Counted from the first letter of the stretch, positions 1 to 44,392 are shown. The stretch is DNA of 64,000 nucleotides from an uncultured Gammaproteobacteria bacterium (GCA_964626205.1 CAZVED010000003.1:70421-134420); one strand, 5' to 3'. The notes: generated by a model not told the origin, from the letters alone. Numbers and translations are program-made.

Positions 1-564
1 ATCGGCTGCTCGTTGCTCGCCTGGGATTATTTCAACATCGACACCATCGAGACGCATCACGGACGCACCATCCCGACGATGTGCGGCCTGCAGCGCGCCA
101 ACCCGGCCGCGACAGCCATCGCGTACGTCGGCGATGGTGGTGGCTACGCCATCGGTGGCGGTCACCTTTTGAACGCTGCGATTCGCGACGAGAACATTCT
201 CATTATCGTGGTGAACAACGCGGTGTACGCCATGACCGGCGGACAGGAATCGCCGACTACGCTGCCGGGCATGAAGGTTTCCACGGCTCCATGCGGCGCG
301 GACGAGCATTATATGCGCGGGCCGGACCTCATCCGCAAGGTAAATCCGACGGCTTTCGTGGCGCGCGGTATCACATCGCGGCAATTGGAGCTGCGCGCAC
401 TCATCAAGGATGCGTTGGAGCACGTGCGTGCCAACAAGGGCATGGCGTTCTTGGAGGTGTTGTCGCCGTGCACGCTGAATTGGGGGACCATGGACCGCCC
501 GGACAAGACCTTCGAGTTCCTCGAGAAGACGATGGCGGAGAAGTATCCCATCAAGCGGTACTAG
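1..564 (+). CDS. porB: 2-oxoacid (pyruvate/2-oxoglutarate):ferredoxin oxidoreductase beta subunit, TPP-binding. 5' partial, frame continues from window start.
   Basis: Translation contains the TPP-binding GDGG motif in the context YVGDGGGYAIGGGHLLNAAIRDENILIIVVNNAVYAMTGGQ, typical of PorB/KorB family. Open from position 1, stop TAG at 562-564. Confidence 0.8.
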   Translation: MGCSLLAWDYFNIDTIETHHGRTIPTMCGLQRANPAATAIAYVGDGGGYAIGGGHLLNAAIRDENILIIVVNNAVYAMTGGQESPTTLPGMKVSTAPCGADEHYMRGPDLIRKVNPTAFVARGITSRQLELRALIKDALEHVRANKGMAFLEVLSPCTLNWGTMDRPDKTFEFLEKTMAEKYPIKRY

Positions 565-566
565 GT

Positions 567-1118
567 ATGAGCACCACACACATCATCGTTTGCGGGGAGG
601 GCGGGCAAGGCGCCTTGTCCATCGCGAAGATCATTGGGGAGGCCGCCTGGCTGCAAGGGATTCCAGCCGTCACGGTTCCGTATTTCAGCACCGAGAAACG
701 GGGAGGAACGTCTATGGCGTTCGTCACGGTCAGCGACAAGCCGATTCTCTACCCGAAGTTCCAGAAGGCCGAGTTGTGGGTCGTACTTTCGCAGCGCTCC
801 ATCGATCGCATCTACGACTACCTGCATGAGGATTCCATCGTCATCGTGAACAGCACGCTCGTGAAGGATGTCTCGCGTATCGCGCAGTGGAAGCCGATTG
901 GCGTCCCGGCGACGGAGATTGCCAAGGTGCAGCTCAAGAAGCCACGCACGTTCAATATGGTCATCATGGGTGCGATGCTCCGACATATCCCCGGCTTGGA
1001 CCGCCAGTCTTTCGACAAGGCGCTCGAGATGACGTTCGGCAAGAAATACGAGAAGGACGCGAGCCTGCGTGAACTGAACAAGCAAGCGTTCGACATCGGT
1101 CATGAACTCGCGCAGTAA
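567..1118 (+). CDS. porG: 2-oxoacid:ferredoxin oxidoreductase gamma subunit
   Basis: ATG at 567 lies 2 nt after the porB stop. MSTTHIIVCGEGGQGALSIAKIIGEAAWLQG... matches the POR/KOR gamma-subunit fold. The provided ORF 81..1118 is an out-of-frame upstream extension. Confidence 0.8.
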   Translation: MSTTHIIVCGEGGQGALSIAKIIGEAAWLQGIPAVTVPYFSTEKRGGTSMAFVTVSDKPILYPKFQKAELWVVLSQRSIDRIYDYLHEDSIVIVNSTLVKDVSRIAQWKPIGVPATEIAKVQLKKPRTFNMVIMGAMLRHIPGLDRQSFDKALEMTFGKKYEKDASLRELNKQAFDIGHELAQ

Positions 1119-1614
1119 ACCTATGGACGCAAACAAGAAACCCGCCCTTCGCGACATGACCCGCTTCAAGCCGAAGGCCGTCGAGACCTCCAAGATCCGC
1201 GCCACGCGCTTCACCGACCTCTGCAAGTCGTGCGGTTCGTGCATCATGAAGTGCCCGGTGAACGCCATCTCTTGGCACGAATCCGAGCTTGGCCAGTTGG
1301 GCGAGCCGGCCATCTTTATCGATCTCGACAAGTGCATCGGCTGCGAGACCTGCGAACGTGCGTGCCCGGACCATGCCATCGAGATCACCAACAAGCGCCT
1401 CGAATCCGCGCGGTTCACGACGGGCATTCTCGGCATGGTGGTGCGCTCCAACGCCTGGGTCATTGAACGCGCGGTGACGACGTTCCGCGCTGGCGAGGAG
1501 CGGCTCAAGCAAATTGGAAAGTCCGATGACAAGACGCTTATTTGTCGGCTCATGCGCTTCTTCCTTCGTTATACCAAAGAACCGATTCGCGACGTGGATT
1601 TCACTCGTGAGTAA
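1102..1614 (+). CDS. porD: 2-oxoacid:ferredoxin oxidoreductase delta subunit (2x[4Fe-4S] ferredoxin) with a ~70-aa C-terminal extension. Start may be 1102 or 1123.
   Basis: Two CxxCxxCxxxCP clusters (CKSCGSCIMKCP and CIGCETCERACP). Overlaps the gamma stop. Alternative start MDANKKP at 1123. Confidence 0.7.
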   Translation: MNSRSKPMDANKKPALRDMTRFKPKAVETSKIRATRFTDLCKSCGSCIMKCPVNAISWHESELGQLGEPAIFIDLDKCIGCETCERACPDHAIEITNKRLESARFTTGILGMVVRSNAWVIERAVTTFRAGEERLKQIGKSDDKTLICRLMRFFLRYTKEPIRDVDFTRE

Positions 1615-1617
1615 CCA

Positions 1618-2256
1618 TTGCTGACTATGCAATTCCCCAACGACGCCATGCTGCCAGTGGAAGTGTCTGCACGGCACATTCACCTTTCCCAGGAACACCA
1701 GGACATCCTTTTCGGCGTTGGCTACCAGATGACGATCAAGAAAGAACTTTCCCAGACAGGGCAGTGGGCCGCAGAAGAGCGTGTTACCGTGAAAGGTCCG
1801 AAGGGCGAGGTGAAGTGCACCGTGCTCGGTCCATGCCGGCCGAAGACGCAGGTTGAGTTCGCCTGGAGCGACGGTTTCGCGACGGGCATCACGGTGCCGG
1901 TGCGTGAATCTGGGCACCATGAAGGTACGCCGGGCTGCACGGTCGTAGGTCCGGCAGGAACGTTGGAACTGACGCAAGGCGTCATCAACCCGCAACGGCA
2001 TTTGCACATCGGCGACACGGAGGCTGCCACATGGGGGCTGCAGAAGAACGACGTCATCTCCATCCGAGTCGACGGCGGGCAATCTGTCACGTTCCATGAT
2101 GCCATTGTGCGCGTGCATCCGACCTTCCGCGCGAATATCCATCTCGATACCGACGAGGGCAACGCCTGTGCGTTGCCGATGAAAGGCATGAAAGCAAAGC
2201 TCGTGAAGGTCACGCGGAACGGCGAGGTCATTCATCAAGATAACGACGCAGTATGA
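1618..2256 (+). CDS. pduL: PduL-type phosphate acyltransferase (phosphotransacetylase/propanoyltransferase)
   Basis: Two PduL/EutD-type repeats with conserved motifs SARHIHLSQEHQDILFG and QRHLHIGDTEAA. ~212 aa as for PduL. Stop overlaps the ackA start (ATGA). Confidence 0.75.
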   Translation: MLTMQFPNDAMLPVEVSARHIHLSQEHQDILFGVGYQMTIKKELSQTGQWAAEERVTVKGPKGEVKCTVLGPCRPKTQVEFAWSDGFATGITVPVRESGHHEGTPGCTVVGPAGTLELTQGVINPQRHLHIGDTEAATWGLQKNDVISIRVDGGQSVTFHDAIVRVHPTFRANIHLDTDEGNACALPMKGMKAKLVKVTRNGEVIHQDNDAV

Positions 2257-3407
2257 TTCTCGTCATCAACTCTGGAAGCTCCAGCCTCAAATTTAAGCTC
2301 TACGCGAAGGATTTCCGCATCCTGCTTTCGGGCATCGTGGAACGCATCGGTCTCAAACAGCCGTTCCTTCGCTACGCGTTCGAGGGCGGCAATGAGCGCG
2401 ATGAATCGTTCACGTCGGTGCCGGACCATGTCGCAGCATTGCGACATGTCTTCGATGTCGTTGAGCAGGGTGGTTTCGACAAGGCCGATATCAGTGTCGT
2501 CGGTCATCGCGTAGTGCACGGCGGCGAGGAGTTCACGGAGCCGACCATCATCACTTCGAAGAATATCGCAAAACTGGAGGCGTACTCCAAGCTCGCGCCG
2601 TTGCACAATCCGTCGAACCTTGCGGGTATCCGTTCATGTATGAAGCTGTTGCCGCTTGCGAAGAACGTCGCGGTGTTCGATACGGCTTTCTACAAGACAA
2701 TCCCGGCTTACGCGTATCTCTACTCGCTGCCGTGGGACTATTACAAGAAGCACAAGATCCGGAAGTACGGCTTCCATGGCATCTCGCATCGGTACGTTTC
2801 TGAGCAGGCGGCGAAGCAGCTTAAGAAACCGCTCTCAACGTTGAGGCTCGTTACCTGCCATCTCGGCAGCGGCGCTTCGGTGACGGCTGTGCAGCACGGC
2901 AAGGCGATCGATACGAGTATGGGGTTCACGCCGCTCGAAGGGCTCACGATGTCCACGCGCTGCGGCGATATTGATGCCGCTATCCCGCTCTATCTCATTC
3001 GCGAGCTTGGCATGACAGCGGATGAAGTCGATGTTGAGCTCAATACTAAGTCCGGCCTCCTCGGCATCAGCGGCTACAAGGACTTGCGCGACGTCATGGC
3101 TGCCGCCGGCATCCGTATCCCGGGCTACCAGCTGAAGGGGAAGGTCTCGGCGGAAGCACGTAAGCGCGCCGGCCTTGCCATCGATATTTTCGCCTACGAC
3201 GTCGCGCGGTACATCGCGCAGTTCGCCGGGCTCATGGGTGGCGTGGATGCGGTCGTCTTCACGGCCGGCATCGGTGAGCGGAGCGAGTTCATCCGGAAAG
3301 CCGTCATGGCCATGGTTCCGCTGCCACCGAAGGTGAAGGTCCTCGTAGTACCGACCGACGAAGAGGGGATGATCGCGCGGGACACGGTATCCGTAACCAA
3401 GAAATGA
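2253..3407 (+). CDS. ackA: acetate kinase
   Basis: MILVINSGSSSLKFKLY N-terminal signature. 384 aa with acetate/propionate kinase family motifs throughout. Confidence 0.9.
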   Translation: MILVINSGSSSLKFKLYAKDFRILLSGIVERIGLKQPFLRYAFEGGNERDESFTSVPDHVAALRHVFDVVEQGGFDKADISVVGHRVVHGGEEFTEPTIITSKNIAKLEAYSKLAPLHNPSNLAGIRSCMKLLPLAKNVAVFDTAFYKTIPAYAYLYSLPWDYYKKHKIRKYGFHGISHRYVSEQAAKQLKKPLSTLRLVTCHLGSGASVTAVQHGKAIDTSMGFTPLEGLTMSTRCGDIDAAIPLYLIRELGMTADEVDVELNTKSGLLGISGYKDLRDVMAAAGIRIPGYQLKGKVSAEARKRAGLAIDIFAYDVARYIAQFAGLMGGVDAVVFTAGIGERSEFIRKAVMAMVPLPPKVKVLVVPTDEEGMIARDTVSVTKK

Positions 3408-3412
3408 ACGAC

Positions 3413-3443
3413 GAAGCCCGTTGACAGACGGGCTTTTTCGTGG
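3413..3443 (+). terminator. Rho-independent terminator after ackA
   Basis: aagcccgttgacagacgggcttttt: GC stem (GCCCGT/ACGGGC) followed by a T-run. Confidence 0.6.
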
Positions 3444-3477
3444 TTGGATAGCGCGGCTCAGAGAAGGAGGTTCCGTA

Positions 3478-3978
3478 ATGTTCAAACTCGAGACGGTGGC
3501 GACGAAGGCTAAGGACTTCATCCTTGCGGCGGTCCGCGCGATGTCGGATGACGAACGGCGGCAGCTCGCACTGAAGATCATCGACAAGGGCTACGGATGG
3601 GTCGTGGCGCACAACCTGACGCTGTTCAAGGGTCTCGGCTTGGGGGTCGCGAGCGCGCTCATCGCCGAACGCAAGAATCATGCCGGGCAGGTGCTCCGAG
3701 GTCTCGCCGCGTTCGGCCTCTCAGAGGACGAGAAGCGATGGCTCATGTACTACTGCGTCGAGCAGGGCCAGGCATGGGCGGTGCAGGAAGCGGTGCGTGA
3801 GCTCCCGCTCGACTCCGGCTTCGCGCGGCACCTCATCGCCAACGGTTGTGAGCGCTTCGTCGGTGAGCACCTCGCTCTGTTCAAGGGCTACACGGAGACC
3901 CAGTTCCACGAGGATCGGTTCGCGTGGCAAGCAAGCTTCGACTTGCGGCGCGCGCCGGGACATCGGTACAAGGCTTGA
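3478..3978 (+). CDS. hypothetical protein (all-alpha, no recognisable family)
   Basis: ATG preceded by AGGAGG (gagaaggaggttccgtaATG). ORF bounded by intrinsic terminators on both sides. Confidence 0.55.
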   Translation: MFKLETVATKAKDFILAAVRAMSDDERRQLALKIIDKGYGWVVAHNLTLFKGLGLGVASALIAERKNHAGQVLRGLAAFGLSEDEKRWLMYYCVEQGQAWAVQEAVRELPLDSGFARHLIANGCERFVGEHLALFKGYTETQFHEDRFAWQASFDLRRAPGHRYKA

Positions 3979-4010
3979 GTGGAGACCCTGCATCATGCAG
4001 GGTCTTTTTT
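3979..4010 (+). terminator. Rho-independent terminator
   Basis: gagaccctgcatcatgcagggtctttttt: perfect stem ACCCTGCAT/ATGCAGGGT plus T6. Confidence 0.65.
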
Positions 4011-4093
4011 CGTCCATTTTCCCTTGCCTCTTCCTCTTATTTGAGGTAGGCTCCATCCGTTCCGGTCGCTTCGACCGGCCTCTTCATATCCTC

Positions 4094-5734
4094 ATGCTCA
4101 AGCGGTTCTGGGACATGACGAAGACCTCCGTCGGCGGCGCGGCCGTGCTCTTGGGTATCGCATCCCTCATGAGTCGCCTTGCTGGCATTCTCCGCGACCG
4201 ACTCCTATCTTCGACGTTCGGCGCCGGTGCAGAGCTCGACGTGTACTATGCAGCGTTCCGCATCCCGGATCTTGTCTACGGCATGGTCATCGGCGGTATC
4301 GTCACGGCAGGATTCATCCCGGTCTTCACGCGGTATCTGGGAGAGCATGCGAATCCGGAGACGGGCGTGGGCGAAGGAGCCTCGCGTCTCGCTGACGCGC
4401 TGCTGTCGATTCTCGGCGTTGTGCTCGTCGTCGGCGCACTGATCGGTGTCGTCGCAGCACCATGGTTCGTGCCAATCATCACGCCAGGGTTCGACCCTGA
4501 ACAGATGGAGCTGGCAGTCGCTCTCACGCGCGTGATGCTTCTCAATCCGATTTTTCTCGGACTTTCCAACGTTTACGGTGGTATCTTGCAGACCAAACGT
4601 CGATTCCTCATCTTCGCGTTCGCGCCGGTGCTCTACAACCTTGGCGCCATACTCGGTACCGCATTCCTCGCCCCGTCCATCGGCGCTCTCGGATCCGTCA
4701 TCGGTGTTACCTCTGGTGCATTTCTCCACCTTGTCGCGCAGGTTCTCGAATGTCGCGCTGGCGGGTATCGATTCCGTTTCATCTGGGACCCGATGCATGA
4801 AGGTATCCGGCAGATCGCCCGTCTCTCCTTGCCACGTTTCGCAAGCCTCGGGGCCGCGCAGATGAATCACCTTGTCATCACGGGCATCGCCTCAACGCTC
4901 GGGGCGGGCAGCATCGCGGTCTTCACGCTTGCGACGAACCTCCAGCTGTTCCCGATCGGTATTGTCGGCGTCTCCTTTGCGGTCGCTGCGTTCCCGCTCA
5001 TTTCCGAGCTTGCTGCGAAAGGGAAGACAGCAGAGTTCGTTGCTGCAATCGCGCGAACGACAAAGCACATCCTGTTCCTCATTATCCCGGCCACGGTGCT
5101 CATGTTGCTCCTACGCGCGCAAATCGTGCGTATCGTGCTCGGTGCCGGTCGGTTCGGTTGGGCGGACACCATCGCGACGGCCGACGCGCTCGCATTCTTC
5201 TCGCTCTCCCTTTTCTCGCAGGCGCTCTGGCCGCTCATCGCACGCGCATGCTTCGCGGTAGAGGATGCGCTCGGACCATTGTACGCAGTACTTGCCGGTA
5301 TCGCCGTTGAGCGTACAGTTGCGTGGATGCTCGTAGTGAAAGGAATGGGAACACCCGGTCTCGCGCTCGCCTCATCCATTGGCAGCATCGTGACCATTGC
5401 CTGGCTCTGGTTCGCGCTGCGGAGTCGCGTTGGCTCGCTAGAGGAGTCATCCATCCTGAAGTCGGTTGCTATTACGACTGGTGCCGCGCTCGTCATGGCC
5501 GTTGTCGTACAGCTCACGAAGGGCGCCATTGGCGACGCACTCGGCACGACGACGTTCCTCCGCATTTTCGCGCAAGGCATCGGTGCTGGTCTTGCAGGGA
5601 CGCTCGCATTCTTTGCGACCGCGTATGCGCTGGGAAGCGGCGAAGTCCGCAGCATCATGGCCATGTATACACGACGTTTTGCGACCGTACCGACACCGGG
5701 TATCCGGCAGGAGGACGGCCATATCGCACCCTGA
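4094..5734 (+). CDS. murJ: lipid II flippase MurJ (MviN)
   Basis: MLKRFWDMTKTSVGGAAVLLGIASLMSRLAGILRDRLLSSTFGAGAELDVYYAAFRIPDL... is the canonical MurJ N-terminus. ~546 aa polytopic. The ORF-track start 3680 is an upstream in-frame artefact overlapping the previous gene. Confidence 0.85.
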   Translation: MLKRFWDMTKTSVGGAAVLLGIASLMSRLAGILRDRLLSSTFGAGAELDVYYAAFRIPDLVYGMVIGGIVTAGFIPVFTRYLGEHANPETGVGEGASRLADALLSILGVVLVVGALIGVVAAPWFVPIITPGFDPEQMELAVALTRVMLLNPIFLGLSNVYGGILQTKRRFLIFAFAPVLYNLGAILGTAFLAPSIGALGSVIGVTSGAFLHLVAQVLECRAGGYRFRFIWDPMHEGIRQIARLSLPRFASLGAAQMNHLVITGIASTLGAGSIAVFTLATNLQLFPIGIVGVSFAVAAFPLISELAAKGKTAEFVAAIARTTKHILFLIIPATVLMLLLRAQIVRIVLGAGRFGWADTIATADALAFFSLSLFSQALWPLIARACFAVEDALGPLYAVLAGIAVERTVAWMLVVKGMGTPGLALASSIGSIVTIAWLWFALRSRVGSLEESSILKSVAITTGAALVMAVVVQLTKGAIGDALGTTTFLRIFAQGIGAGLAGTLAFFATAYALGSGEVRSIMAMYTRRFATVPTPGIRQEDGHIAP

Positions 5735-5742
5735 CACCTCTA

Positions 5743-7559
5743 TGGAGCTCAAGAATATCCGTAATTTCTGCATCATCGCGCATATCGACCACGGCAAGTC
5801 CACACTGGCCGATCGTCTTTTGGAGCATACGGGAACGGTTACGAAGCGCGAAATGAAGGATCAGCTGCTCGATCAGATGGACTTGGAGCGCGAGCGTGGC
5901 ATCACCATCAAACTGACGCCGGTACGCATGCGGCACACGGCGAAGGACGGTGCGTCGTACATGCTGAATCTCATCGACACACCGGGGCACATCGACTTCA
6001 CCTACGAAGTGTCGCGCTCGCTTGCGGCCGTCGAAGGCGCCATCCTGCTTGTTGACGCCACGCAAGGCGTCCAGGCACAGACCATCGGCAACCTCTACCT
6101 CGCGATGGATCAGGACATCACCATCATTCCGGTGGTGAATAAGATCGACATGCCGGCTGCAGAGCCGGAGAAGGTCCGCGACGAGATTGTGCATCTCTTA
6201 GGCTGCGCGCCGGAGGATGTGCTGTACGTCTCTGGAAAGACCGGCCAAGGCGTCGATGCGCTGTTGGAAGCCGTCATTGCGCGCATTGCGCCGCCGGAAG
6301 GAAACCCTGAAGGTTCGCTTCGCGCACTCGTTTTCGATTCCATGTACGACACGTATAAAGGCGTCGTCGCGTACGTGCGTGTCATCGACGGGCATATCGA
6401 GAAGGGTAAAGACGTCCGGCTCGCCAGCGGCGGTGTCGAGTCCGAAACGCTCGACGTCGGATTTTTCTCGCCGAAGTACGTGGGGTCGCCGGATCTCAAA
6501 GCCGGCGAGATCGGCTACATCGTCACGGGGCTCAAGGACATCGAGTCCTGCCGTGTTGGCGACACCATCACCGTGCCGGATTTTCAGGCGCGCGGCGTCG
6601 TGCCACTCGATGGCTACAAGGAAATCACGCCGATGGTCTTCGCGGGTATCTACCCGCAGGAAGGCGACGAGTACGACAAGCTCCGCGAGGCGATGCTGAA
6701 GATGAAGCTGTCGGACGCGGCACTGACATTCGATCCGGAACATCAGGTCGCGCTCGGATTCGGATTCCGTTGCGGCCTTCTCGGATTGCTGCACCTTGAG
6801 ATTCTCCAAGAGCGCCTGCGCCGCGAGCATAACATCGAGGTCATCGTCACGGCGCCTTCTGTGGCGTATCAGGTCGAGAAGACCGACGGTTCGAAACTTA
6901 TCGTGAAGTCCGCGCTCAACTTGCCCGACCCCACGCATATCGAGGAAGTCACCGAACCGTGGGTGAAGCTCGACATCATCACGCCGAAGCAGCATATCGG
7001 CGCGGTCATGGCGTTCGTGCAGGACCGCCGTGGCGTGTACCAGACCACGGAGTATCTCACGGCAGACACCGAAGGGGCAGCGCGTGCCATTCTGCACTAC
7101 GAGATCGCTCTCGCACCTATCCTCGTGGACTTCTATGACAAGCTGAAGAGTGTCACGTCCGGCTACGCGTCGATGAATTACGAGATCATCGGGTATCGGC
7201 CGGCGAATGTCGTACGCATGGACATCCTTGTCGCCGACGACGCAGTGGACGCGCTTTCCTCCATCGTCTATCGTGAGGATGCAGAGCGTGAAGGTCGCAA
7301 GATCTGCAAGACGCTCATCGAGTCGCTTCCGCGGCAGCAGTTCGCGGTGAAGGTGCAAGCCATGGTCGGCGGTACCATCGTCGCTTCCGAGCGCCTCTCT
7401 GCGTTCCGTAAAGATGTCACCGGCGGCCTCTACGGCGGCGACTGGACACGTAAGATGAAGCTCCTCGAGAAACAGAAGAAGGGAAAGAAACGCATGGCGA
7501 AGACCGGTAAGGTCGAGATTCCGCCCGATGCGTTCATGGCCGTGCTCAAGAAAAAATAA
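5743..7559 (+). CDS. lepA: elongation factor 4 (LepA)
   Basis: MELKNIRNFCIIAHIDHGKSTLADRLLEHTG and DTPGHIDFTYEVSRSL GTPase motifs. 605 aa. The track start 5466 is an artefactual extension. Confidence 0.95.
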
Positions 7560-19167: not shown

Positions 19168-20916
19168 ATGTCATTAGGAAACACCTCGACGCAGGTCCTG
19201 ACGGTGCTTCTTGAGTCAGGTCGCATCACGGAGGAACAATATAAGGAAGTCGAGCGCTTAAGCGCGGAATCCGGGACGCCGGCCGAGGATATTGTCGTGC
19301 AGCGAAAGTTTGCCGATGACGATCTTGTGGCGAAGGCGAAGGGTATGGTTCTTGGTGTTCCGTACATAGATCTCGTTGGCAAGGATATTCCATCCGATGT
19401 TCTCAACCTTATCAGCAAGGAGGCATCGGAAAACGCGCAGTCCGTCGCGTTTGCGCGAGAAGGTCGTTCCGTGAGCATCGGAATGATCGACCCTCGCGAC
19501 CCCGCTGCACGACAGGCGCTGGACTTTCTTGCGCAGACGGCGGGGTTCACTCCGAGCTATCACATCATCACCAAAGCGTCGTTCGCGTATGCGGCGAAGC
19601 GGTACGGGGTCATCGGTAAGGAGGTTGAGACTGCGCTTGAAGCTGCAGAAGAGAAGTACGCCGTGCCGGAGAAGACGGCAGATGGGCAAGAAGGGAAACT
19701 GGAGGAGGTCATCAAAGGAGCACCTGTCTCGCGCATCGTGAGCGTCATTCTCCGTCATGCGGTCGAAGGCGGTGCGTCAGACATTCATATCGAACCGCTT
19801 GCGGAAGAAACCCGTGTTCGGTATCGCGTGGATGGCGTTCTTCGCGCGGCCCTGACCTTGCCGAAATACATCCACTCATCGCTCATTTCGCGCATCAAGG
19901 TGCTTGCGAACCTCAAGCTCGACGAGACGCGTATTCCGCAGGACGGTCGCATCCGCGAGACGTTCGGAGACAAGGCTATCGATTTCCGCGTATCCACGCT
20001 TCCGTTGCAGGACAGTGAGAAGGTCGTGATGCGTATTCTCGACACGACGCGCGGTGTTCCGACGCTTGAGCAGCTTGGATTCCGCAAGCAGTACATCGAC
20101 ATCATTGCCGAAGAAATCAAGAAGCCGCACGGAATGTTCCTTATCACGGGGCCAACCGGTTCCGGAAAGTCCACGACATTGTTCACTGTCCTCAATATGC
20201 GCAACGAGGACGGCATCAACATCTCCACCCTGGAGGATCCAGTCGAGTACACCATCAAGGGCGTCAACCAAGCGCAGGTGCGTCCGGAGGTTGGATTCGG
20301 GTTCGCCGAAGGGCTTCGCGCGCTGCTCCGCCAGGACCCGAACGTCATCATGGTCGGTGAAATCCGTGACGGTGAAACCGGCGAACTTGCCATTCACGCG
20401 GCGCTTACCGGCCACTTGGTCTTTTCCACGTTGCATACCAACGATGCCTACGGTATCGTGCCGCGTCTGACGGATATGCGCCTCGAGCCGTTCCTCATCG
20501 CCGCGACGATGAATCTCGGCATCGCGCAGCGTCTCGCTCGAAAGATCTGCGAACGGTGCCGAGCGGAAACCGATGTCCCAGCGGAGGTCGAGGCTTCCAT
20601 CGTGCGCTTGCTCGAACCGATACCGCAGGAGTACAAGGCGCACCTGACATTCAAATCGGACGGAAGGCCACAGTTCTACAAAGGACGCGGCTGCCTGCGC
20701 TGCAACGACACCGGCTATGTCGGCCGTGTCGCCATCGCGGAAGTACTGCGATTCGACGATGCCATGCGGCAAATCGTCGCCGAAGGGTTCACTACGGAGA
20801 AGGCGGACCCGGTGGCGCGAAAGAGCGGATTCCTGACGATGCAGCAGGATGGGGTCTTGAAGGCATTGGAAGGTTTGACTACAATTGAGGAGGTGATGAG
20901 GGTTACCTCCGAATGA
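19168..20916 (+). CDS. pilB: type IV pilus assembly ATPase PilB (GspE family)
   Basis: N-terminal GSPII_E_N-type domain. Walker A LITGPTGSGKSTTLFTVL, Asp box, His box. Tetracysteine CERCRAE...CLRCNDTGY. 582 aa. Confidence 0.9.
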   Translation: MSLGNTSTQVLTVLLESGRITEEQYKEVERLSAESGTPAEDIVVQRKFADDDLVAKAKGMVLGVPYIDLVGKDIPSDVLNLISKEASENAQSVAFAREGRSVSIGMIDPRDPAARQALDFLAQTAGFTPSYHIITKASFAYAAKRYGVIGKEVETALEAAEEKYAVPEKTADGQEGKLEEVIKGAPVSRIVSVILRHAVEGGASDIHIEPLAEETRVRYRVDGVLRAALTLPKYIHSSLISRIKVLANLKLDETRIPQDGRIRETFGDKAIDFRVSTLPLQDSEKVVMRILDTTRGVPTLEQLGFRKQYIDIIAEEIKKPHGMFLITGPTGSGKSTTLFTVLNMRNEDGINISTLEDPVEYTIKGVNQAQVRPEVGFGFAEGLRALLRQDPNVIMVGEIRDGETGELAIHAALTGHLVFSTLHTNDAYGIVPRLTDMRLEPFLIAATMNLGIAQRLARKICERCRAETDVPAEVEASIVRLLEPIPQEYKAHLTFKSDGRPQFYKGRGCLRCNDTGYVGRVAIAEVLRFDDAMRQIVAEGFTTEKADPVARKSGFLTMQQDGVLKALEGLTTIEEVMRVTSE

Positions 20917-21317
20917 TCAACGATACGCCTATGGCCGACACAACGAAAAAGAACGTGCTCATCATCGACGACGACTCTTTCCTTTCAGGTATTTACGCGA
21001 CGAAACTGGACATCGAAGGGTTCGGCGTCGTGACGGCGAAGGACGGCGAGGAAGGCCTCAAGATGCTGGAGAAAGAACTTCCAGACCTCATCCTGCTTGA
21101 CGTGCTCATGCCGAAGCTCGACGGATTCGAGACGCTCAAGCGTATCAAGGCCATCCCTGGCGCCGCAGATATCCCGGTCATCATGCTTACGAATCTCGGA
21201 CAAAAAGAGGATATCGAGAAAGGGCTGGAACAGGGCGCAGTCGACTACCTCATCAAGGCGCATTTCGTCCCGGCTGAGGCCGTGGACAAGATCAAGAAGG
21301 TCCTGAAGATGGCCTGA
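20913..21317 (+). CDS. stand-alone CheY-like response regulator receiver (PilH-like)
   Basis: VLIIDDDSF...DLILLDVLMPKLDGFE...VIMLTN...K: receiver domain with phosphoacceptor Asp. No output domain. 4-nt overlap with the pilB stop. Confidence 0.8.
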   Translation: MINDTPMADTTKKNVLIIDDDSFLSGIYATKLDIEGFGVVTAKDGEEGLKMLEKELPDLILLDVLMPKLDGFETLKRIKAIPGAADIPVIMLTNLGQKEDIEKGLEQGAVDYLIKAHFVPAEAVDKIKKVLKMA

Positions 21318-21322
21318 GTCAC

Positions 21323-22531
21323 ATGGCACGCTACGATTACGAGGCACGTGAACAGGATGGCGCGCCGGTAAGCGGCGTGGTCGAATCCCCGACGGAAGAC
21401 ATCGCGCGAGAGACCCTTCGAGATAGGGGTCTTTTCGTCGTTTCGCTTGCCAAGCAGGGCAGGCAAGGGCTTCTCGCGTTCGAAATCCCGTTCTTCAACA
21501 AGATTCCCATCAAGGATATCGTGATCTTTTCCCGTCAGTTTGCGGTGCTCATGGGTTCGAAAGTGCCGGTTGTGCGCGGACTCAAAACCGTCGCGGCTCA
21601 GACGCGGAACGAGCGGTTCCGGAACATTCTCATCGATATGTCGTCGGACGTGGAGTCGGGAACAGCGCTTTCGGTCGCCATGGCCGCGTATCCGCAGGCG
21701 TTCTCCTCGTTTTTCATGAATATGATCCGCTCCGGCGAGACGACGGGCAAGCTCGAGGAAACGATGAATTACCTCGCGGACCAGATGGAACGCGACTATG
21801 ACCTTGAAGCGAAGATTAAAGGCGCGATGATCTACCCGTTGTTCGTCATCTTCGGCCTTGTTGTCGTGGGCTTCATCATGATGGCATTCGTCGTGCCAAA
21901 GCTGACGGGCGTACTTGCCGAGTCGGGTGTCGATTTGCCGATCACGACGAAGATGCTTATCGCGACATCTTCGTTCTTCGCGGACTACGCGATCGGTATC
22001 ATCATTGCCACGGTCCTTGCGGCGTTTGCGTTCCGGTTTTGGACATCTCGTGCGGGCGGACGTGCCATTTGGGATCGCGCCAAGCTGTATATCCCGGTAT
22101 TCGGTCCGCTCTTGCGGAACATCTATCTCATCCGGTTCACGCGTAGTTTCTCTACGCTTCTGCGTGGCGGCGTGGACGTCCCGCAGAGCCTCGCCATCTG
22201 TGCGGACATCGTTGGGAACGCGCATTACGAAAGCATGGTCCGCGCGACCATCAAGGAAGTGAACGATGGAAACTCGCTCACCACCATCATGGCAGAAGAC
22301 CGGCTTATCCCGCAGATGATCCCGCAGATGATCTCGGTCGGTGAAGAGACGGGCCGGCTTTTCGAGGTTCTGGAAAAGCTGACTGAATTTTACGGGCGCG
22401 AGCTCGAGAACAGCGTTGCGAACCTGGTATCCGCAATCGAGCCGCTTATCATGCTGGTCATGGGCGGTGCCGTCGGCGTCATGGTTTCAGCCATCATCCT
22501 TCCGATGTATCGGTTAGCGACAGCTTTCTGA
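21323..22531 (+). CDS. pilC: type IV pilus platform protein PilC (GspF family)
   Basis: Two GspF repeats. Motifs such as FSRQFAVLMGSKVPVVRGL and MIRSGETTGKLEE are typical. 402 aa polytopic. Confidence 0.9.
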   Translation: MARYDYEAREQDGAPVSGVVESPTEDIARETLRDRGLFVVSLAKQGRQGLLAFEIPFFNKIPIKDIVIFSRQFAVLMGSKVPVVRGLKTVAAQTRNERFRNILIDMSSDVESGTALSVAMAAYPQAFSSFFMNMIRSGETTGKLEETMNYLADQMERDYDLEAKIKGAMIYPLFVIFGLVVVGFIMMAFVVPKLTGVLAESGVDLPITTKMLIATSSFFADYAIGIIIATVLAAFAFRFWTSRAGGRAIWDRAKLYIPVFGPLLRNIYLIRFTRSFSTLLRGGVDVPQSLAICADIVGNAHYESMVRATIKEVNDGNSLTTIMAEDRLIPQMIPQMISVGEETGRLFEVLEKLTEFYGRELENSVANLVSAIEPLIMLVMGGAVGVMVSAIILPMYRLATAF

Positions 22532-22554
22532 GTTGTGGAAAAGAGAAGAGTCTG

Positions 22555-22583
22555 TTGTCCTTGCGGTCATTTTTTGCTATACT
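22555..22583 (+). promoter_or_regulatory. sigma70-like promoter TTGTCC-N17-TATACT upstream of the pilin gene
   Basis: TTGTCC (22555-22560), 17-nt spacer, TATACT (22578-22583) with upstream TGC (extended -10-like TGCTATACT). A second overlapping copy TGCTATAC follows immediately. Confidence 0.5.
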
Positions 22584-22657
22584 GCTATACAAGGTCCTCT
22601 TGTGGACAATTTATTCATCTTTCGTCATTCAACCCCGTTTAGGGGAGTAACGCACGT

Positions 22658-23152
<495 letters not shown>

Positions 23153-23176
23153 GTCATCGGTCGCACGAATCCACGA

Positions 23177-23204
23177 AAACCCCCGCACATGTGCGGGGGT
23201 TTTC
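23177..23204 (+). terminator. Rho-independent terminator between the two pilin genes
   Basis: aaaacccccgcacatgtgcgggggtttt: perfect 8-bp GC stem plus T4, immediately followed by TGCTATACT (23205-23213). Confidence 0.65.
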
Positions 23205-23245
23205 TGCTATACTTCAGGGACGACATCCCCATAATCGTAGCCCAC

Positions 23246-23719
23246 ATGGAAAATCGCACAAAAGGCTTTACGCTCATCGAGCTGCTTCTCGTCATAGCGG
23301 TCATCGGACTCATTGGCGCGCTCGCCATGGCCATGATTGATACCGCGCGAAGGAAGCCGCGCGATGCGAAACGTGTTTCGGACATCAAGGCCATACAGAC
23401 CGCATTGGACCTGTACATGGCGAGTTCGTCGACCGGATATCCGGCGACGCCGGTCGTTGCACTGGGGGAGCCTGGGGCCGATCGTCTTTGTGACACGGGT
23501 TGGCAATCACGGGCGTCTGCGTGCGCCGGCAAGGTGTATCTTGAGCTCGTTCCCAAAGCGCCTCCGGTCGCGGACGGTGCTTGCACGCCAGCGGAGAACG
23601 CCTATACGTATCAGCAGACCGGCACCGGCACCGGGTATATCATCGATTTCTGTCTCGGTGGCGAAGTGTCCGGGTACCCGGCGGGCCCGGTGACGGCGAC
23701 GGAGGACGGTATCTTGTAA
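23246..23719 (+). CDS. type IV pilin paralog (pilin candidate 2)
   Basis: MENRTKGFTLIELLLVIAVIGLI prepilin motif. Shares KRV(A/S)D(V/I)K(Q/A)IQTAL(E/D)LY, LVP(S/K)AP, CT(E/P)AENAY(S/T)Y and FC(I/L)GG blocks with the upstream pilin. The track start 23189 is an upstream extension. Confidence 0.8.
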   Translation: MENRTKGFTLIELLLVIAVIGLIGALAMAMIDTARRKPRDAKRVSDIKAIQTALDLYMASSSTGYPATPVVALGEPGADRLCDTGWQSRASACAGKVYLELVPKAPPVADGACTPAENAYTYQQTGTGTGYIIDFCLGGEVSGYPAGPVTATEDGIL

Positions 23720-23722
23720 TCT

Positions 23723-24508
23723 ATGTCGCTTCTTGCCCTCATCTCCACGTTCGTCTTCGGTACGGTCATCGGCAGTTTTTTGAACGCTGTGCTTTGGCGG
23801 CTTCGGACGGGTGAGTCGGTGGCGCATGGCCGTTCGTATTGCACGACCTGTCGTCACACGCTTGCTGCCGCGGACCTCGTGCCGCTGCTGAGTTACCTTC
23901 TGCTGCGCGGCAAGTGCCGGTATTGCGCCGCACCCATCGGCTCCCAGTACCCCATGGTCGAACTGGCGACCGGTTTCCTGTACGTCGCTTCGGCGGCAAC
24001 GGTTTTCTTCGCGCATGGGAACGTGCTTGGTGCCGACGCCCTTACGACGCTGCTGCTCTATTGGTATCTGATGAGCGTCCTCGTCATCGTCTTTGTCTAC
24101 GATTGGCGATACATGCTCATTCTTCGCGCGGTCACGTTGCCGGCAACGGGTATTGCTGCGGTAGCCAATCTCGCGCTCGGGGTACCATGGATATCGTTGG
24201 TGCTCGGCATGCTCATTGGTTGGGGGTTTTTCCGCCTGCAAATCATCGTATCCAGAGGTCGTTGGGTTGGCGGAGGTGATGCCTGGCTCGGGCTCCTCAT
24301 GGGAGCCGCGCTCGGATGGCCGATGGTCGTCGTGGCGTTATTCATCGCGTATCTTACGGGTGCAGCCGTCGGTTCGTTCATGCTCCTGACGCGGCGCGCG
24401 AGCATGCAGTCGCAGATCCCGTTCGGGACGTTCCTTGCCGCGGCGACAGTCATCACGCTTCTTGCTGGTGACGGTATCCTCACCTGGTACCTTAATCTGT
24501 TGTCATGA
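23723..24508 (+). CDS. pilD: prepilin peptidase PilD (A24 family)
   Basis: N-terminal tetracysteine zinc motif CTTCRH...CRYC. Polytopic. Catalytic-Asp-containing DWRY and GGGD motifs. Confidence 0.85.
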   Translation: MSLLALISTFVFGTVIGSFLNAVLWRLRTGESVAHGRSYCTTCRHTLAAADLVPLLSYLLLRGKCRYCAAPIGSQYPMVELATGFLYVASAATVFFAHGNVLGADALTTLLLYWYLMSVLVIVFVYDWRYMLILRAVTLPATGIAAVANLALGVPWISLVLGMLIGWGFFRLQIIVSRGRWVGGGDAWLGLLMGAALGWPMVVVALFIAYLTGAAVGSFMLLTRRASMQSQIPFGTFLAAATVITLLAGDGILTWYLNLLS

Positions 24509-25113
24509 CCGATCAGCGCGGCTTTACCTTGATCGAGATGCTGGTCTCCATGAGCATCTTTGCCGTCATCACGGGGTTCGTGATGGCGAATTATCGCGTT
24601 GGCCAACAAGGTGATGAATTGCGCATCTCGGCGCAGCTCGTAGGGAGCATGGTTCGCCGTGCGCAGACCTCAGCCGTTGCTGGCGGAGAGATTTTCGCAT
24701 GCGCTGGCGGCCTCTCCGTCGGCACGGTATGTACTCCGGGTGATGCCGCCGTATGCGGGGAGGGGACATGCGTCCGCGATATCCCACGTGGGTACGGCGT
24801 CCGGTTCTCGACGACGAGCGGCGAAGAACGACGGATGACGTATTTCGCGGACACGGATGGGAACCGCAGGTTCGGCGCAGGCGAGACGGTCCGGACAGAT
24901 ACCGTGAGCTCCGGAAGGTTCGTCGACGTGGTTGCCGTGTCGCCAGCCGACAACGGTGCTCTTGAGATCGTCTTTGTGCCGCCGCGGGCGGCGGCGTTCT
25001 ATAACGCCGCGACGGACGTGATTGAGGCGGTCATCACGCTCCGGCATCGTACGACGGGACAAGAGCGCGATGTCCGCATCAACCGTATTTCCGGACAAGT
25101 CAGCATCGACTGA
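24505..25113 (+). CDS. minor pilin / pseudopilin (GspH/FimT-like)
   Basis: MTDQRGFTLIEMLVSMSIFAVI prepilin N-terminus. Confidence 0.7.
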   Translation: MTDQRGFTLIEMLVSMSIFAVITGFVMANYRVGQQGDELRISAQLVGSMVRRAQTSAVAGGEIFACAGGLSVGTVCTPGDAAVCGEGTCVRDIPRGYGVRFSTTSGEERRMTYFADTDGNRRFGAGETVRTDTVSSGRFVDVVAVSPADNGALEIVFVPPRAAAFYNAATDVIEAVITLRHRTTGQERDVRINRISGQVSID

Positions 25114-43082: not shown

Positions 43083-44354
43083 ATGAAGGTGGTAGTATTT
43101 CGTCAGGAGGTCTTCATCGAAGCTATCAATATGTACAGTTACATCATCCTCCAGCTGCTCTCTGGCATCATCGGCGTCGTTGCGGCTGTGCTGATCCTTA
43201 AGGGCTTGTTCCTCATCAGGAAGAGGTCCGATAGGGCCGCAAGGATCACCATTGACATCGGTGTCGGAGCCTTGTCGCTCGCCGCGATGCTTTTTGTCGT
43301 CACCGGGATCCCGTACCCGCTCCATTTCGCCATGCCGCCGACGATGCAAGCGATGACGCACGATAAGAAGCCCGCGTCCCTGCCGATACTCGCGATGCTC
43401 GAGTTCCTCTCCAAGAGGGATCGGTTCGAGAAGGTCGCGGATATTGGCCGAGATCCCAATGATGTTCCACCGGCCGTGGGCGCCCGCGAACCCGGTATCG
43501 TAAAAATTTCCGTCCGGACCAAGGAAGTGATTTCCGAGGTCGCTCCGGGCGTCTTCTTCAACTATTGGACGTACGATGGCCAAGTGCCCGGACCGATGTA
43601 CCGGGTGAGGGTCGGTGACACGGTGGAGCTCACCATCACGAACGACCCCACGAGCATCCATCCGCACAACATCGACCTACATGCGGTCACGGGTCCTGGC
43701 GGGGGAGCGGCGGTCACGTTGGTTCAGCCAGGTGAGACGAGGACGTTCCGGTGGCTCGCCAAGCACCCCGGGCTCTACGAGTACCATTGCGCGACCGCGA
43801 ACGTCAGTACGCACAACTCGCACGGACAGTACGGCCTGATCCTGGTCGAACCCGAGGGAGGGCTGTCGGCGGTCGACAAGGAGTTCTATCTTATGCAGGG
43901 CGAGCTCTATACGCTGGGCGGCATCGGCAAGAAGGGCCTCATGGCCTTCGATACGCAGGGTCTTATCGACGGTACTCCGACGTACGTCACTTTCAACGGA
44001 AAGATCGAACAGGCGCCGCGCATGAATGCGAAGGTCGGTGACCGCATACGCATGTACGTGGGAGGTGGTGGAGTCAACCTCATTTCGTCCTTTCATGTCA
44101 TCGGCGAAATATTCGATACGGTGTATCCTGAAGGCGCGATGGGTGAAGGCTCGACGGTGCTCAAGAACGTCCAGACGACGGCGGTGCTGCCCGGCGGTTC
44201 GACCATCGTCGAGTTCACTGTCGATGTCCCGGGGGAATTCCTTGTCGTCGATCACGCGCTTGCGAGGATGAACAAAGGGGCGTGGGCGGTCCTTAAAGTG
44301 ACAGGCGACCCGCGCCCGGATATCTACTCGGAAATCACTCCTAAAAAACCTTGA
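43083..44354 (+). CDS. nirK: copper-containing nitrite reductase NirK (two-domain cupredoxin), N-terminally membrane-anchored
   Basis: Type-1/type-2 Cu ligand motifs HPHNIDLHAVTGPGGG (cf. HNxDFHAATG) and YEYHCATANVSTHNSHGQYGLILVEP (cf. YHCAP...H..G M.G). N-terminal TM (IILQLLSGIIGVVAAVLIL). Start 43083 or 43128. Confidence 0.8.
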   Translation: MKVVVFRQEVFIEAINMYSYIILQLLSGIIGVVAAVLILKGLFLIRKRSDRAARITIDIGVGALSLAAMLFVVTGIPYPLHFAMPPTMQAMTHDKKPASLPILAMLEFLSKRDRFEKVADIGRDPNDVPPAVGAREPGIVKISVRTKEVISEVAPGVFFNYWTYDGQVPGPMYRVRVGDTVELTITNDPTSIHPHNIDLHAVTGPGGGAAVTLVQPGETRTFRWLAKHPGLYEYHCATANVSTHNSHGQYGLILVEPEGGLSAVDKEFYLMQGELYTLGGIGKKGLMAFDTQGLIDGTPTYVTFNGKIEQAPRMNAKVGDRIRMYVGGGGVNLISSFHVIGEIFDTVYPEGAMGEGSTVLKNVQTTAVLPGGSTIVEFTVDVPGEFLVVDHALARMNKGAWAVLKVTGDPRPDIYSEITPKKP

Positions 44355-44392
44355 GACCCAAGTGCGTCAGTCGTCCTGAAAACCGACCACGG

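What the first reader, a model, noticed from the sequence alone, without database searches (positions are those of the whole stretch)
1..3407. Compact por(beta-gamma-delta)-pduL-ackA operon: a PduL-type phosphotransacylase replaces Pta in an acetyl-CoA to ATP module
Five consecutive genes with 2-4 nt gaps or overlaps encode POR subunits, a PduL-family phosphotransacylase (SARHIHLS and QRHLHIGD repeats) and acetate kinase. The operon ends in a clean terminator. The subunit order beta-gamma-delta, with alpha presumably upstream, differs from the common gamma-delta-alpha-beta order. The delta subunit carries a ~70-aa C-terminal extension. Using PduL and not classical Pta for substrate-level phosphorylation is a noteworthy wiring of central fermentation.
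Basis: partly seen in the sequence, partly recalled or inferred. Interest (0 to 1): 0.55.

Follow-up and report, generated by a model that had tools for sequence, protein, structure and literature searches.

The report
Pyruvate-to-acetate ATP operon, Patescibacteria
This is a real, tightly packed operon from a candidate-phyla-radiation (Patescibacteria) bacterium that most likely turns pyruvate into acetate and makes ATP. It uses a PduL-type enzyme where most bacteria use Pta, a substitution already known from acetogens and phytoplasmas, so it is tidy but ordinary.

Summary
Window 1-3407 carries five co-directional genes: a 2-oxoacid:ferredoxin oxidoreductase (OFOR) beta subunit cut by the window edge, then gamma, a 2x[4Fe-4S] delta, PduL and acetate kinase. 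They are separated by 2-12 nt or overlap by 4 nt, and a strong hairpin with a T-run follows.

Relatives with 83-93% identical PduL show the missing alpha subunit directly upstream. The full set alpha-beta-gamma-delta-pduL-ackA recurs in at least 10 further Patescibacteria-type contigs.

PduL keeps all six metal ligands and has no encapsulation peptide. No shell genes and no Pta homologue lie in the 64-kb window. AckA has the acetate-type pocket.

The oxidoreductase is not a canonical PorCDAB enzyme. It belongs to the Kor/Oor/archaeal OFOR clade, where alpha-beta-gamma order is normal. The site where 2-oxoglutarate enzymes carry Arg/Lys is Leu here, which fits pyruvate or another neutral 2-oxoacid.

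PduL serving as the housekeeping phosphotransacetylase is already established in Moorella and proposed for phytoplasmas. I therefore rate this a new member of a known kind, of modest interest. Whether the genome lacks pta could not be tested.

The parts
1..564 (+). OFOR beta subunit (TPP-binding), 3' 187 codons; the 5' end is cut by the window edge
   Evidence: PF02775 E 4e-20. 94% identical to the C-terminal 187 aa of the 238-aa beta of L001. Codon 16-18 encodes Leu at the StOFOR1 Lys49b / OGOR Arg site.
567..1118 (+). OFOR gamma subunit (183 aa)
   Evidence: PF01558 E 3e-35. 86-87% identical to the L001 and L002 gamma, which carry an extra non-conserved 26-aa tail.
1123..1614 (+). OFOR delta: 2x[4Fe-4S] ferredoxin core (residues about 32-90) plus a conserved 73-aa C-terminal extension
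   Evidence: Fer4 families. Best NCBIfam hit is OorD, below its cut-off. About 115 homologue clusters cover at least 85% of its length. The AF2 model has pLDDT 84 and the extension is helical. Only the ferredoxin core finds fold matches.
1627..2256 (+). PduL-type phosphotransacylase (209 aa from ATG 1627; 212 aa if TTG 1618 is used)
   Evidence: PF06130 E 4e-66 and NF011652 above its cut-off. 5CUO match E 4e-45 with all metal ligands conserved and no N-terminal encapsulation peptide.
2253..3407 (+). Acetate kinase AckA (384 aa)
   Evidence: PF00871 E 2e-125; TIGR00016 414 bits against cut-off 293. Aligns to T. maritima and M. thermophila AckA at E 1e-98 to 1e-102. Val is present at the acetate-pocket V93 site.
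3413..3438 (+). Intrinsic-terminator-like hairpin (stem 3415-3422 / 3427-3434, loop GACA) followed by TTTTT
   Evidence: Fold energy -21.3 kcal/mol, z -4.9, with 0 of 200 shuffles as stable. Not called by the simple pattern scan.

Best explanation
The region is the 3' five-sixths of a six-gene operon, oforA-oforB-oforG-oforD-pduL-ackA, from a Patescibacteria (CPR) bacterium. It encodes a complete oxidative branch from a 2-oxoacid to ATP.

Proposed steps:
1. A four-subunit, Oor/Kor-architecture 2-oxoacid:ferredoxin oxidoreductase decarboxylates pyruvate, and possibly also 2-oxobutyrate, to acyl-CoA. Electrons pass through the beta [4Fe-4S] cluster and the two clusters of delta to an external acceptor.
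2. A cytosolic, non-encapsulated PduL-type phosphotransacylase converts acetyl-CoA plus phosphate to acetyl-phosphate and frees CoA.
3. AckA transfers the phosphoryl group to ADP, giving acetate and ATP.

Translational coupling (2-12 nt gaps and an ATGA overlap) and a single terminator after ackA keep the three activities co-expressed.

Shown here: the gene identities, the operon architecture, its conservation, intact catalytic residues, absence of an encapsulation peptide and of shell genes, and absence of the basic residue that 2-oxoglutarate-using relatives carry.

Inferred: the substrate (pyruvate), the direction (oxidative, ATP-yielding), and that PduL is the organism's only phosphotransacetylase.
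For: Operon conservation:
- Alpha (373-377 aa; POR_N, PFOR_II) lies directly upstream of beta in L001 and L002.
- The complete a-b-g-d set with PduL and AckA, all on one strand, is in L001, L002, L006, L007, L009, L010, L011, L012, L013 and L023; the L010 alpha is cut by the contig end.
- L014 and L091 have a-b-g-PduL-AckA without delta. The PduL proteins of the L006-L023 group are only 52-61% identical to the window protein.

PduL against the 5CUO structure:
- The Zn ligands His48, His50, Glu109, His157, His159 and His204 correspond to H17, H19, E77, H125, H127 and H172.
- Phosphate-binding Arg103 corresponds to R71, and Asn211 to N179.
- Only 8 residues precede the aligned core, against about 39 in the BMC enzyme (residue roles from PMC4784909).

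AckA: the acetate-pocket residues V93, L122, F179 and P232 of M. thermophila AckA are all retained. E. coli propionate kinase TdcD has Ala at the V93 site.

OFOR:
- The YPITP motif is present in the alpha subunit of L001, L002 and 9 other related loci (the window does not contain alpha).
- The beta position equal to StOFOR1 Lys49b is Leu in the window and in all 11 relatives examined. It is Arg in the OGORs 8YS5_C and 6N2N_B.
- The K49bI mutant of StOFOR1 loses 2-oxoglutarate activity but keeps pyruvate activity (PMC5020499).

Context:
- No tblastn hit (E<1e-5) to E. coli Pta, EutD, EutM, EutN, EutL or EutK in the window or in any of the 85 related loci searched.
- An alanine dehydrogenase gene at 54524-55639 could supply pyruvate.
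- Precedents for PduL+AckA as the acetate/ATP branch: Moorella and phytoplasmas.
Against: - The substrate is not established. Every NCBIfam hit for alpha, beta, gamma and delta is below its curated cut-off, so no equivalog assignment is possible.
- JGI pipelines name the delta homologues '2-oxoglutarate ferredoxin oxidoreductase subunit delta'.
- A VorB-type model scores nearly as well as the generic alpha model.
- One relative (L002) has a class I/II aminotransferase directly upstream of alpha, hinting at amino-acid-derived 2-oxoacids.
- Salmonella PduL prefers propionyl-CoA (PMC4784909).
- CoA-contacting Arg97 of rpPduL is Thr in the window protein and its two closest relatives.
- All three reactions are reversible, so direction cannot be read from sequence.
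- Relatives L003-L005, L018, L089 and L090 keep PduL-AckA in the same neighbourhood but have no OFOR genes there. The linkage is therefore not obligatory.
- The rest of the genome is unseen.
Confidence: 0.75

Rival explanations
1. The same enzymes run in the assimilatory direction. Acetate taken from a host or the environment is activated by AckA and PduL to acetyl-CoA. The OFOR then reductively carboxylates it to pyruvate (pyruvate synthase), which feeds alanine and gluconeogenesis.
For: All three reactions are reversible; the reverse use of Pta-Ack is noted in PMC4784909. The closest solved alpha/beta relatives include the CO2-fixing Magnetococcus OGOR 6N2N. An alanine dehydrogenase is encoded in the window.
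Against: No source of low-potential reduced ferredoxin (hydrogenase, Rnf, CODH) was found among the roughly 35 window proteins scanned. CPR bacteria are generally described as fermenters (PMC7304191). This route costs ATP in an organism with few ATP sources.
Confidence: 0.1
2. The module mainly ferments amino-acid-derived 2-oxoacids other than pyruvate (2-oxobutyrate, branched-chain 2-oxoacids). The acyl-CoAs are passed by an acyl-tolerant PduL to the kinase, yielding propionate or other short acids plus ATP.
For: The alpha subunit scores almost as well on a VorB subfamily model as on the generic OFOR alpha model. An aminotransferase gene lies directly upstream of alpha in L002. Salmonella PduL prefers propionyl-CoA (PMC4784909). 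The related StOFORs have broad specificity (PMC5020499).
Against: The AckA pocket is acetate-type, with Val at V93 where propionate kinase has Ala, and with L122, F179 and P232 retained. The aminotransferase neighbour is seen in only one of about 14 loci. No Ptb/Buk-type genes are present.
Confidence: 0.12
3. The oxidoreductase is a 2-oxoglutarate:ferredoxin oxidoreductase (korABCD), as automated annotation states, and its adjacency to pduL-ackA has no metabolic meaning.
For: JGI names the delta homologues korD. OGOR models and structures are among the best hits.
Against: The Arg/Lys that OGORs and StOFOR carry at the Lys49b site is Leu in the window and all 11 homologues. Loss of that charge abolishes 2-oxoglutarate activity in StOFOR1. 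Tight coupling to pduL-ackA is conserved across proteins only 52-61% identical. All scores are below the equivalog cut-offs.
Confidence: 0.03
4. PduL here is a microcompartment (metabolosome) core enzyme and the shell genes lie elsewhere in the genome.
For: The PF06130 family was first characterised in Pdu microcompartments.
Against: There is no N-terminal extension that could form an encapsulation peptide. No shell or aldehyde-dehydrogenase homologues occur in the 64-kb window or within 10 kb in the Patescibacteria-type loci.
Confidence: 0.01

Closest known systems
Moorella thermoacetica PduL1/PduL2 plus AckA (acetogen acetate branch); phytoplasma PduL-like plus AckA
   Same: A PduL-family enzyme outside any microcompartment serves as the phosphotransacetylase that feeds acetate kinase for substrate-level phosphorylation.
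   Different: Here pduL and ackA overlap translationally and are fused into one operon with the acetyl-CoA-producing OFOR. The lineage is Patescibacteria, and no biochemical data exist for it. In my searches no paper in the held library mentioned PduL together with CPR.
Rhodopseudomonas palustris PduL (PDB 5CUO/5CUP) and Salmonella Pdu PduL
   Same: Same fold family. Both RHxH motifs, all six Zn ligands and the phosphate-binding Arg are conserved.
   Different: There is no N-terminal encapsulation peptide and no BMC locus. CoA-contacting Arg97 is Thr in the window protein.
Helicobacter pylori OorDABC (PDB 8YS5), the four-subunit 2-oxoglutarate:acceptor oxidoreductase
   Same: Four separate subunits of similar size for alpha and gamma. 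Alpha-beta-gamma gene order. It gives the best solved-structure hit for beta, and a delta hit.
   Different: Delta is encoded last rather than first and carries a 73-aa helical C-terminal extension. Beta is about 35 aa shorter at its C-terminus. Leu replaces the Arg at the distal-carboxylate site, so 2-oxoglutarate is unlikely to be the substrate.
Sulfolobus tokodaii StOFOR1/2 (PDB 5B46-5B48), broad-specificity (ab)2 OFOR
   Same: Same clade. The YPITP motif and the Cys ligands of the beta cluster are conserved.
   Different: StOFOR fuses gamma to alpha and lacks delta. It has Lys49b where the CPR enzyme has Leu.
Canonical PorCDAB/PorGDAB pyruvate:ferredoxin oxidoreductase (for example Methanosarcina PFOR, PDB 9BT4)
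   Same: Four-subunit OFOR with a dicluster delta; probably the same physiological reaction.
   Different: Different gene order. Sequence similarity is much weaker: alpha scores E 1e-14 against 9BT4_B versus 3e-44 against 1YD7, and the PorA/PorB NCBIfam scores are 3-4 times lower than those of the Kor/OFOR models.

Membership tests
PduL / PTAC phosphotransacylase (PF06130) | Family HMM score above the curated threshold | tested here: met
   PF06130 scores 222 bits against cut-off 25. NCBIfam NF011652 scores 221.5 bits against cut-off 209.
PduL / PTAC phosphotransacylase (PF06130) | Dimetal active site (rpPduL His48, His50, Glu109, His157, His159, His204) and phosphate-binding Arg103 | tested here: met
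   All are aligned and identical: H17, H19, E77, H125, H127, H172 and R71. They are invariant or nearly so across 23 homologues.
PduL / PTAC phosphotransacylase (PF06130) | Acyl-CoA:phosphate acyltransferase activity and acyl preference | not testable with these tools
   Needs an enzyme assay with acetyl-CoA versus propionyl-CoA.
BMC-associated (metabolosome) PduL | N-terminal amphipathic encapsulation peptide | tested here: not met
   Only 8 residues precede the conserved core, against about 39 in rpPduL (numbering from PMC4784909).
BMC-associated (metabolosome) PduL | Shell protein genes (BMC-H, BMC-P) and an aldehyde dehydrogenase in the locus | tested here: not met
   No tblastn hit (E<1e-5) to EutM, EutN, EutL, EutK or EutE in the 64-kb window or in the Patescibacteria-type loci. 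The rest of the genome is unseen.
Acetate/propionate kinase family (TIGR00016, PF00871) | Family HMM score above the curated threshold and conserved catalytic core | tested here: met
   TIGR00016 scores 414 bits against cut-off 293.4. The motifs GHRVVHGG, PLHNP, FHG, TPLEG and PTDEE all align to AckA structures.
Acetate/propionate kinase family (TIGR00016, PF00871) | Acetate-type substrate pocket (M. thermophila V93, L122, F179, P232) | tested here: met
   All four are retained. E. coli TdcD has Ala at the V93 site. The roles of these residues are from my own recall of the literature, not checked in a paper here.
Four-subunit 2-oxoacid:ferredoxin oxidoreductase (OFOR superfamily) | Alpha (POR_N, PFOR_II), beta (TPP_enzyme_C with Cys cluster ligands), gamma (POR domain), delta (2x[4Fe-4S]), and the YPITP motif | tested here: met
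   Alpha was tested in relatives L001 and L002 only, because it is not in the window.
Canonical pyruvate:ferredoxin oxidoreductase PorABCD | Equivalog-level similarity to PorA/B/C/D and por-type gene order (gamma-delta-alpha-beta) | tested here: not met
   PorA scores 89 bits against cut-off 550. PorB scores 56 bits against cut-off 405. PorC scores 62 bits against cut-off 270. The gene order is alpha-beta-gamma-delta.
2-oxoglutarate:ferredoxin oxidoreductase (Kor/Oor) | Basic residue (Arg, or Lys in StOFOR) after the GCS cluster motif of beta, needed for 2-oxoglutarate activity | tested here: not met
   Leu in the window (codon 16-18) and in all 11 homologues. Arg in 8YS5_C and 6N2N_B; Lys49 in 5B48_B. 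Mutant data are in PMC5020499.
Classical Pta (PF01515 PTA_PTB) | Absent from the genome, so that PduL 'replaces' it | tested here: inconclusive
   No tblastn hit to the E. coli Pta C-terminal domain or EutD in the 64-kb window or related loci. The rest of the genome is not available. One CPR survey reports phosphate acetyltransferase as a small family conserved in a few deep CPR clades (PMC7304191).

The most novel reading that the evidence does not exclude
The Patescibacteria enzyme set may be a distinct OFOR subfamily. Its features are a beta subunit lacking the usual C-terminal region, delta encoded last, and a conserved 73-aa helical tail on delta with no structural match. That tail might dock PduL, or the alpha/beta core, so that acetyl-CoA and CoA are recycled within a shell-less complex. 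This would be a minimal 'metabolosome core without a compartment' that supplies much of the ATP of these reduced cells.
Probability: 0.07. Interest if true: 0.6.

Novelty: new member of a known kind. Interest (0 to 1): 0.27.

Why it matters
CPR/Patescibacteria have few recognised routes to ATP. Metabolic surveys that count only classical Pta report phosphate acetyltransferase as a small family conserved in a few CPR clades (PMC7304191).

A conserved OFOR-PduL-AckA operon shows that a group of Patescibacteria-type contigs, including ones labelled Paceibacter and Uhrbacteria, has a complete branch from pyruvate to acetate and ATP. It also shows that PF06130 should be counted as the phosphotransacetylase step in these reconstructions.

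The result also corrects a likely mis-annotation: korABCD, '2-oxoglutarate', for an enzyme that lacks the residue needed for 2-oxoglutarate.

It does not change any general principle. PduL as a housekeeping Pta is already established elsewhere.

Tried and rejected
- Exact-sequence look-up of the window AckA found no record.
- A single-sequence scan of genome contigs with PduL found nothing. An alignment-based scan was needed. Its closest species-representative genome is only 61% identical, so the organism itself is not in that collection.
- The simple promoter/terminator scan found no sigma-70-like promoter in 1-6000 and did not call the post-ackA hairpin.
- An Rfam scan of the whole window found only two tRNAs, with no riboswitch or leader near the operon.
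- I tested whether the delta tail compensates for the short beta. Beta length stays at about 238-247 aa whether delta is long (about 160 aa), short (98-122 aa in L013 and L023) or absent (L014, L091). There is no support for compensation.
- A Foldseek search of the delta model against the PDB matched only the ferredoxin core, so the tail remains unassigned.
- Genes inserted within the operon in some relatives are not pathway-related: MgtE in L011, L012, L014 and L091, and a metallo-beta-lactamase-fold protein between pduL and ackA in L008 (a similar gap in L009 was not scanned).
- A literature search for PduL together with CPR returned no paper.


Full report
**1. What is in the sequence**

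Window 1-3407 holds five same-strand genes.
- Frame 1 is open from base 1 to a stop at 562-564. It encodes the C-terminal 187 residues of an OFOR beta subunit (PF02775, E 4e-20).
- 567-1118 encodes a 183-aa gamma subunit (PF01558, E 3e-35).
- 1123-1614 encodes a 163-aa protein with two CxxCxxCxxxCP motifs (Fer4 families).
- 1627-2256 (or from TTG 1618) encodes PduL (PF06130, E 4e-66; NF011652 221.5 bits against cut-off 209).
- 2253-3407 encodes acetate kinase (PF00871, E 2e-125; TIGR00016 414 bits against cut-off 293).

The junctions are a 2-nt gap, a 4-nt gap, a 3- or 12-nt gap, and a 4-nt ATGA overlap. Eight bases after the ackA stop there is an 8-bp G+C-rich hairpin (3415-3434) followed by TTTTT. 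A 51-nt stretch containing it folds at -21.3 kcal/mol, z = -4.9. The crude terminator scan missed it.

**2. The missing 5' end and the lineage**

The exact AckA sequence is not in the contig index. PduL homologues at 93% and 83% identity sit on contigs L001 and L002. There a 373-377-aa alpha subunit (POR_N, PFOR_II) directly precedes a 238-240-aa beta that is 92-94% identical to the window fragment. Gamma, delta, PduL and AckA follow. The operon is therefore alpha-beta-gamma-delta-pduL-ackA, and the window starts 51 codons into beta.

The named homologues are from Patescibacteria, Parcubacteria, Uhrbacteria and Paceibacter. The rest of the window fits that assignment: a type IV pilus cluster, very large proteins with no Pfam domain, and housekeeping genes.

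**3. Conservation**

An alignment-based scan of species-representative genomes returned 80 loci. I searched them by tblastn with the window and L001 proteins.
- All four OFOR genes plus PduL plus AckA lie on one strand in L006, L007, L009, L010, L011, L012, L013 and L023. PduL in these loci is only 55-61% identical to the window protein.
- L008 is cut off upstream by its contig end.
- L014 and L091 have alpha-beta-gamma but no delta.
- L011, L012, L014 and L091 carry an MgtE gene between the OFOR genes and pduL.
- L003-L005, L018, L089 and L090 keep the same neighbourhood (glycosyltransferase, Rieske protein, pduL, ackA, murJ, lepA, recJ) but have no OFOR genes there.

The invariant core is therefore pduL-ackA. 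The OFOR block is usually attached to it, but not always.

**4. PduL**

Against the R. palustris PduL structure (5CUO, E 4e-45), every residue that the structure paper assigns to the two zinc sites is conserved. These are His48, His50, Glu109, His157, His159 and His204, together with phosphate-binding Arg103 and Asn211 (PMC4784909).
- Only eight residues precede the aligned core, against about 39 in the BMC enzyme. There is no room for the amphipathic encapsulation peptide that the same paper finds only in BMC-associated homologues.
- One CoA-contacting residue, Arg97, is Thr in the window protein and its two closest relatives.
- tblastn with E. coli EutM, EutN, EutL, EutK, EutE, EutD and the Pta catalytic domain gave no hit in the window. 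It gave no shell or Pta hit in any related locus.

**5. AckA**

AckA aligns end to end with T. maritima and M. thermophila acetate kinases (E 1e-98 to 1e-102).
- It retains GHRVVHGG, PLHNP, FHG, TPLEG and PTDEE.
- The position of M. thermophila Val93 is Val here, as in E. coli AckA. It is Ala in E. coli propionate kinase TdcD. This supports acetate as the product. The role of these pocket residues is from my own recall of the literature.
- The Patescibacteria AckAs share a 24-residue deletion just before the C-terminal PTxEE motif. Most also share an insertion of about 14 residues.

**6. The oxidoreductase is not a canonical POR**

- Alpha and beta hit P. furiosus 2-keto-acid OFOR (1YD7), Magnetococcus OGOR (6N2N), H. 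pylori OorDABC (8YS5) and S. tokodaii OFOR (5B46, 5B48). These hits are far better than those to Methanosarcina PFOR (9BT4).
- NCBIfam ranks generic OFOR, VorB and OGOR models well above the PorA and PorB equivalogs, and nothing reaches a curated cut-off.
- In this clade alpha-beta-gamma order is normal (OorDABC). The unusual point is only that delta comes last.
- On substrate, the beta residue equivalent to StOFOR1 Lys49b is Arg in both OGOR structures. It is Leu in the window (codon 16-18) and in all 11 homologues.
- In StOFOR1 the K49I mutant loses 2-oxoglutarate activity but keeps pyruvate activity, and pyruvate-specific DaPFOR has Ile at that site (PMC5020499).
- Together with the conserved coupling to PduL and AckA, this favours pyruvate or another uncharged 2-oxoacid. 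It argues against the 'korD / 2-oxoglutarate' labels given by automated annotation.

**7. The delta extension**

The 73 residues after the second cluster motif are conserved in about 115 homologue clusters. In an AlphaFold2 model (pLDDT 84, pTM 0.77) they form three helices and a short strand. Foldseek against the PDB matched only the ferredoxin core. Some relatives have short deltas (98-122 aa) or none, with no change in beta length. The function of the tail is unknown. A subunit-clamping role is the simplest guess.

**8. Mechanism and rivals**

The best reading (confidence about 0.75) has four steps:
1. Pyruvate plus CoA gives acetyl-CoA, CO2 and reduced ferredoxin.
2. PduL makes acetyl-phosphate.
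3. AckA makes ATP and acetate.
4. All genes are co-transcribed and translationally coupled.

The rivals are:
- Reverse, assimilatory operation (0.10).
- Mainly other amino-acid-derived 2-oxoacids (0.12). This is supported by a near-equal VorB-model score and by an aminotransferase upstream of alpha in one relative. The acetate-type kinase pocket argues against it.
- A true OGOR with coincidental adjacency (0.03).
- A BMC enzyme (0.01).

**9. Novelty**

PduL acting as the housekeeping phosphotransacetylase is established for Moorella thermoacetica. PduL1 and PduL2 have Km values for acetyl-CoA of 0.49 and 0.04 mM, and deleting pduL2 shifted product formation away from acetate (PMC8065083). It is proposed, with expression data, for phytoplasmas (PMC3984173). 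Non-BMC PduLs were already noted in the structure paper. JGI already names these proteins 'putative phosphotransacetylase'.

I found no paper linking PduL to CPR. One CPR survey tracks 'phosphate acetyltransferase' only as a small family. The conserved OFOR-PduL-AckA operon in Patescibacteria is therefore a useful annotation point, but it is a new member of a known kind.

Whether the genome truly lacks pta remains untested.

Noticed in passing
window 2253-3407 (insertion about 3108-3161; deletion site about 3320): The AckA of this lineage lacks about 24 residues, a surface segment just before the C-terminal PTxEE motif that is present in E. coli, T. maritima and M. thermophila AckA. It also carries an insertion of about 14 residues (AGIRIPGYQLKGKVSAE). 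Both features are shared by relatives L001, L003 and L012. L006 has the deletion but not the insertion.
   Followed up: partly
L003-L005, L018, L089, L090 versus window 1-1614: Relatives with 49-70% identical PduL keep pduL-ackA directly followed by murJ. L003, L089 and L090 also show the wider glycosyltransferase / Rieske / lepA / recJ synteny. All of them have no OFOR genes there. The OFOR block has therefore been lost, moved or gained within this group.
   Followed up: partly
L014 and L091; L011 and L012: Some relatives lack the delta ferredoxin gene altogether. Several carry an MgtE magnesium transporter gene inserted between the OFOR genes and pduL. L008 has a metallo-beta-lactamase-fold gene between pduL and ackA; L009 shows a similar gap that was not scanned.
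   Followed up: partly
L009 4941-6872: A 643-aa ORF starts with a near copy of the first roughly 25 residues of the OFOR alpha subunit. It then continues as a beta-helix/NosD/TSP3-repeat protein. It lies just upstream of the real alpha gene and may reflect a local duplication or an assembly artefact.
   Followed up: no
L010, L012, L018 (labelled Gammaproteobacteria) and L011 (labelled Binatia): These contigs are labelled as non-CPR taxa. They nevertheless carry the same pduL-ackA-murJ arrangement (L010-L012 with the OFOR genes) and 55-78% identical proteins as contigs labelled Patescibacteria. The bin labels look wrong.
   Followed up: no
window 54524-55639: An alanine dehydrogenase gene (AlaDh_PNT_N/C, E 4e-87) is present. 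It is a possible link between alanine and the pyruvate pool used by the operon.
   Followed up: no
window 43083-48296: Two multicopper-oxidase-family genes (423 and 514 aa) are followed by a heavy-metal P-type ATPase. This is a copper-handling or possibly nitrite-reductase-like cluster in a putatively fermentative CPR genome.
   Followed up: no
window 10108-16307: Two adjacent large ORFs (525 and 1541 aa) have no Pfam match at E<1e-5. They lie directly upstream of a type IV pilus gene cluster at 16375-25113 (PilM, PilB-like ATPase, PilC, prepilin peptidase, pilin).
   Followed up: no
window 3478-3978: A 166-aa ORF with no Pfam or NCBIfam match lies between the terminator and murJ. An ORF of the same size (167 aa) occupies the same position in L002.
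   Followed up: no
L001 3075-3410 and the equivalent genes in L002, L003, L089: A small (111-124 aa) Rieske [2Fe-2S] protein gene is conserved a few genes or less upstream of the operon in these four relatives. It is also present in the relatives that lack the OFOR genes. Its role is unknown.
   Followed up: no
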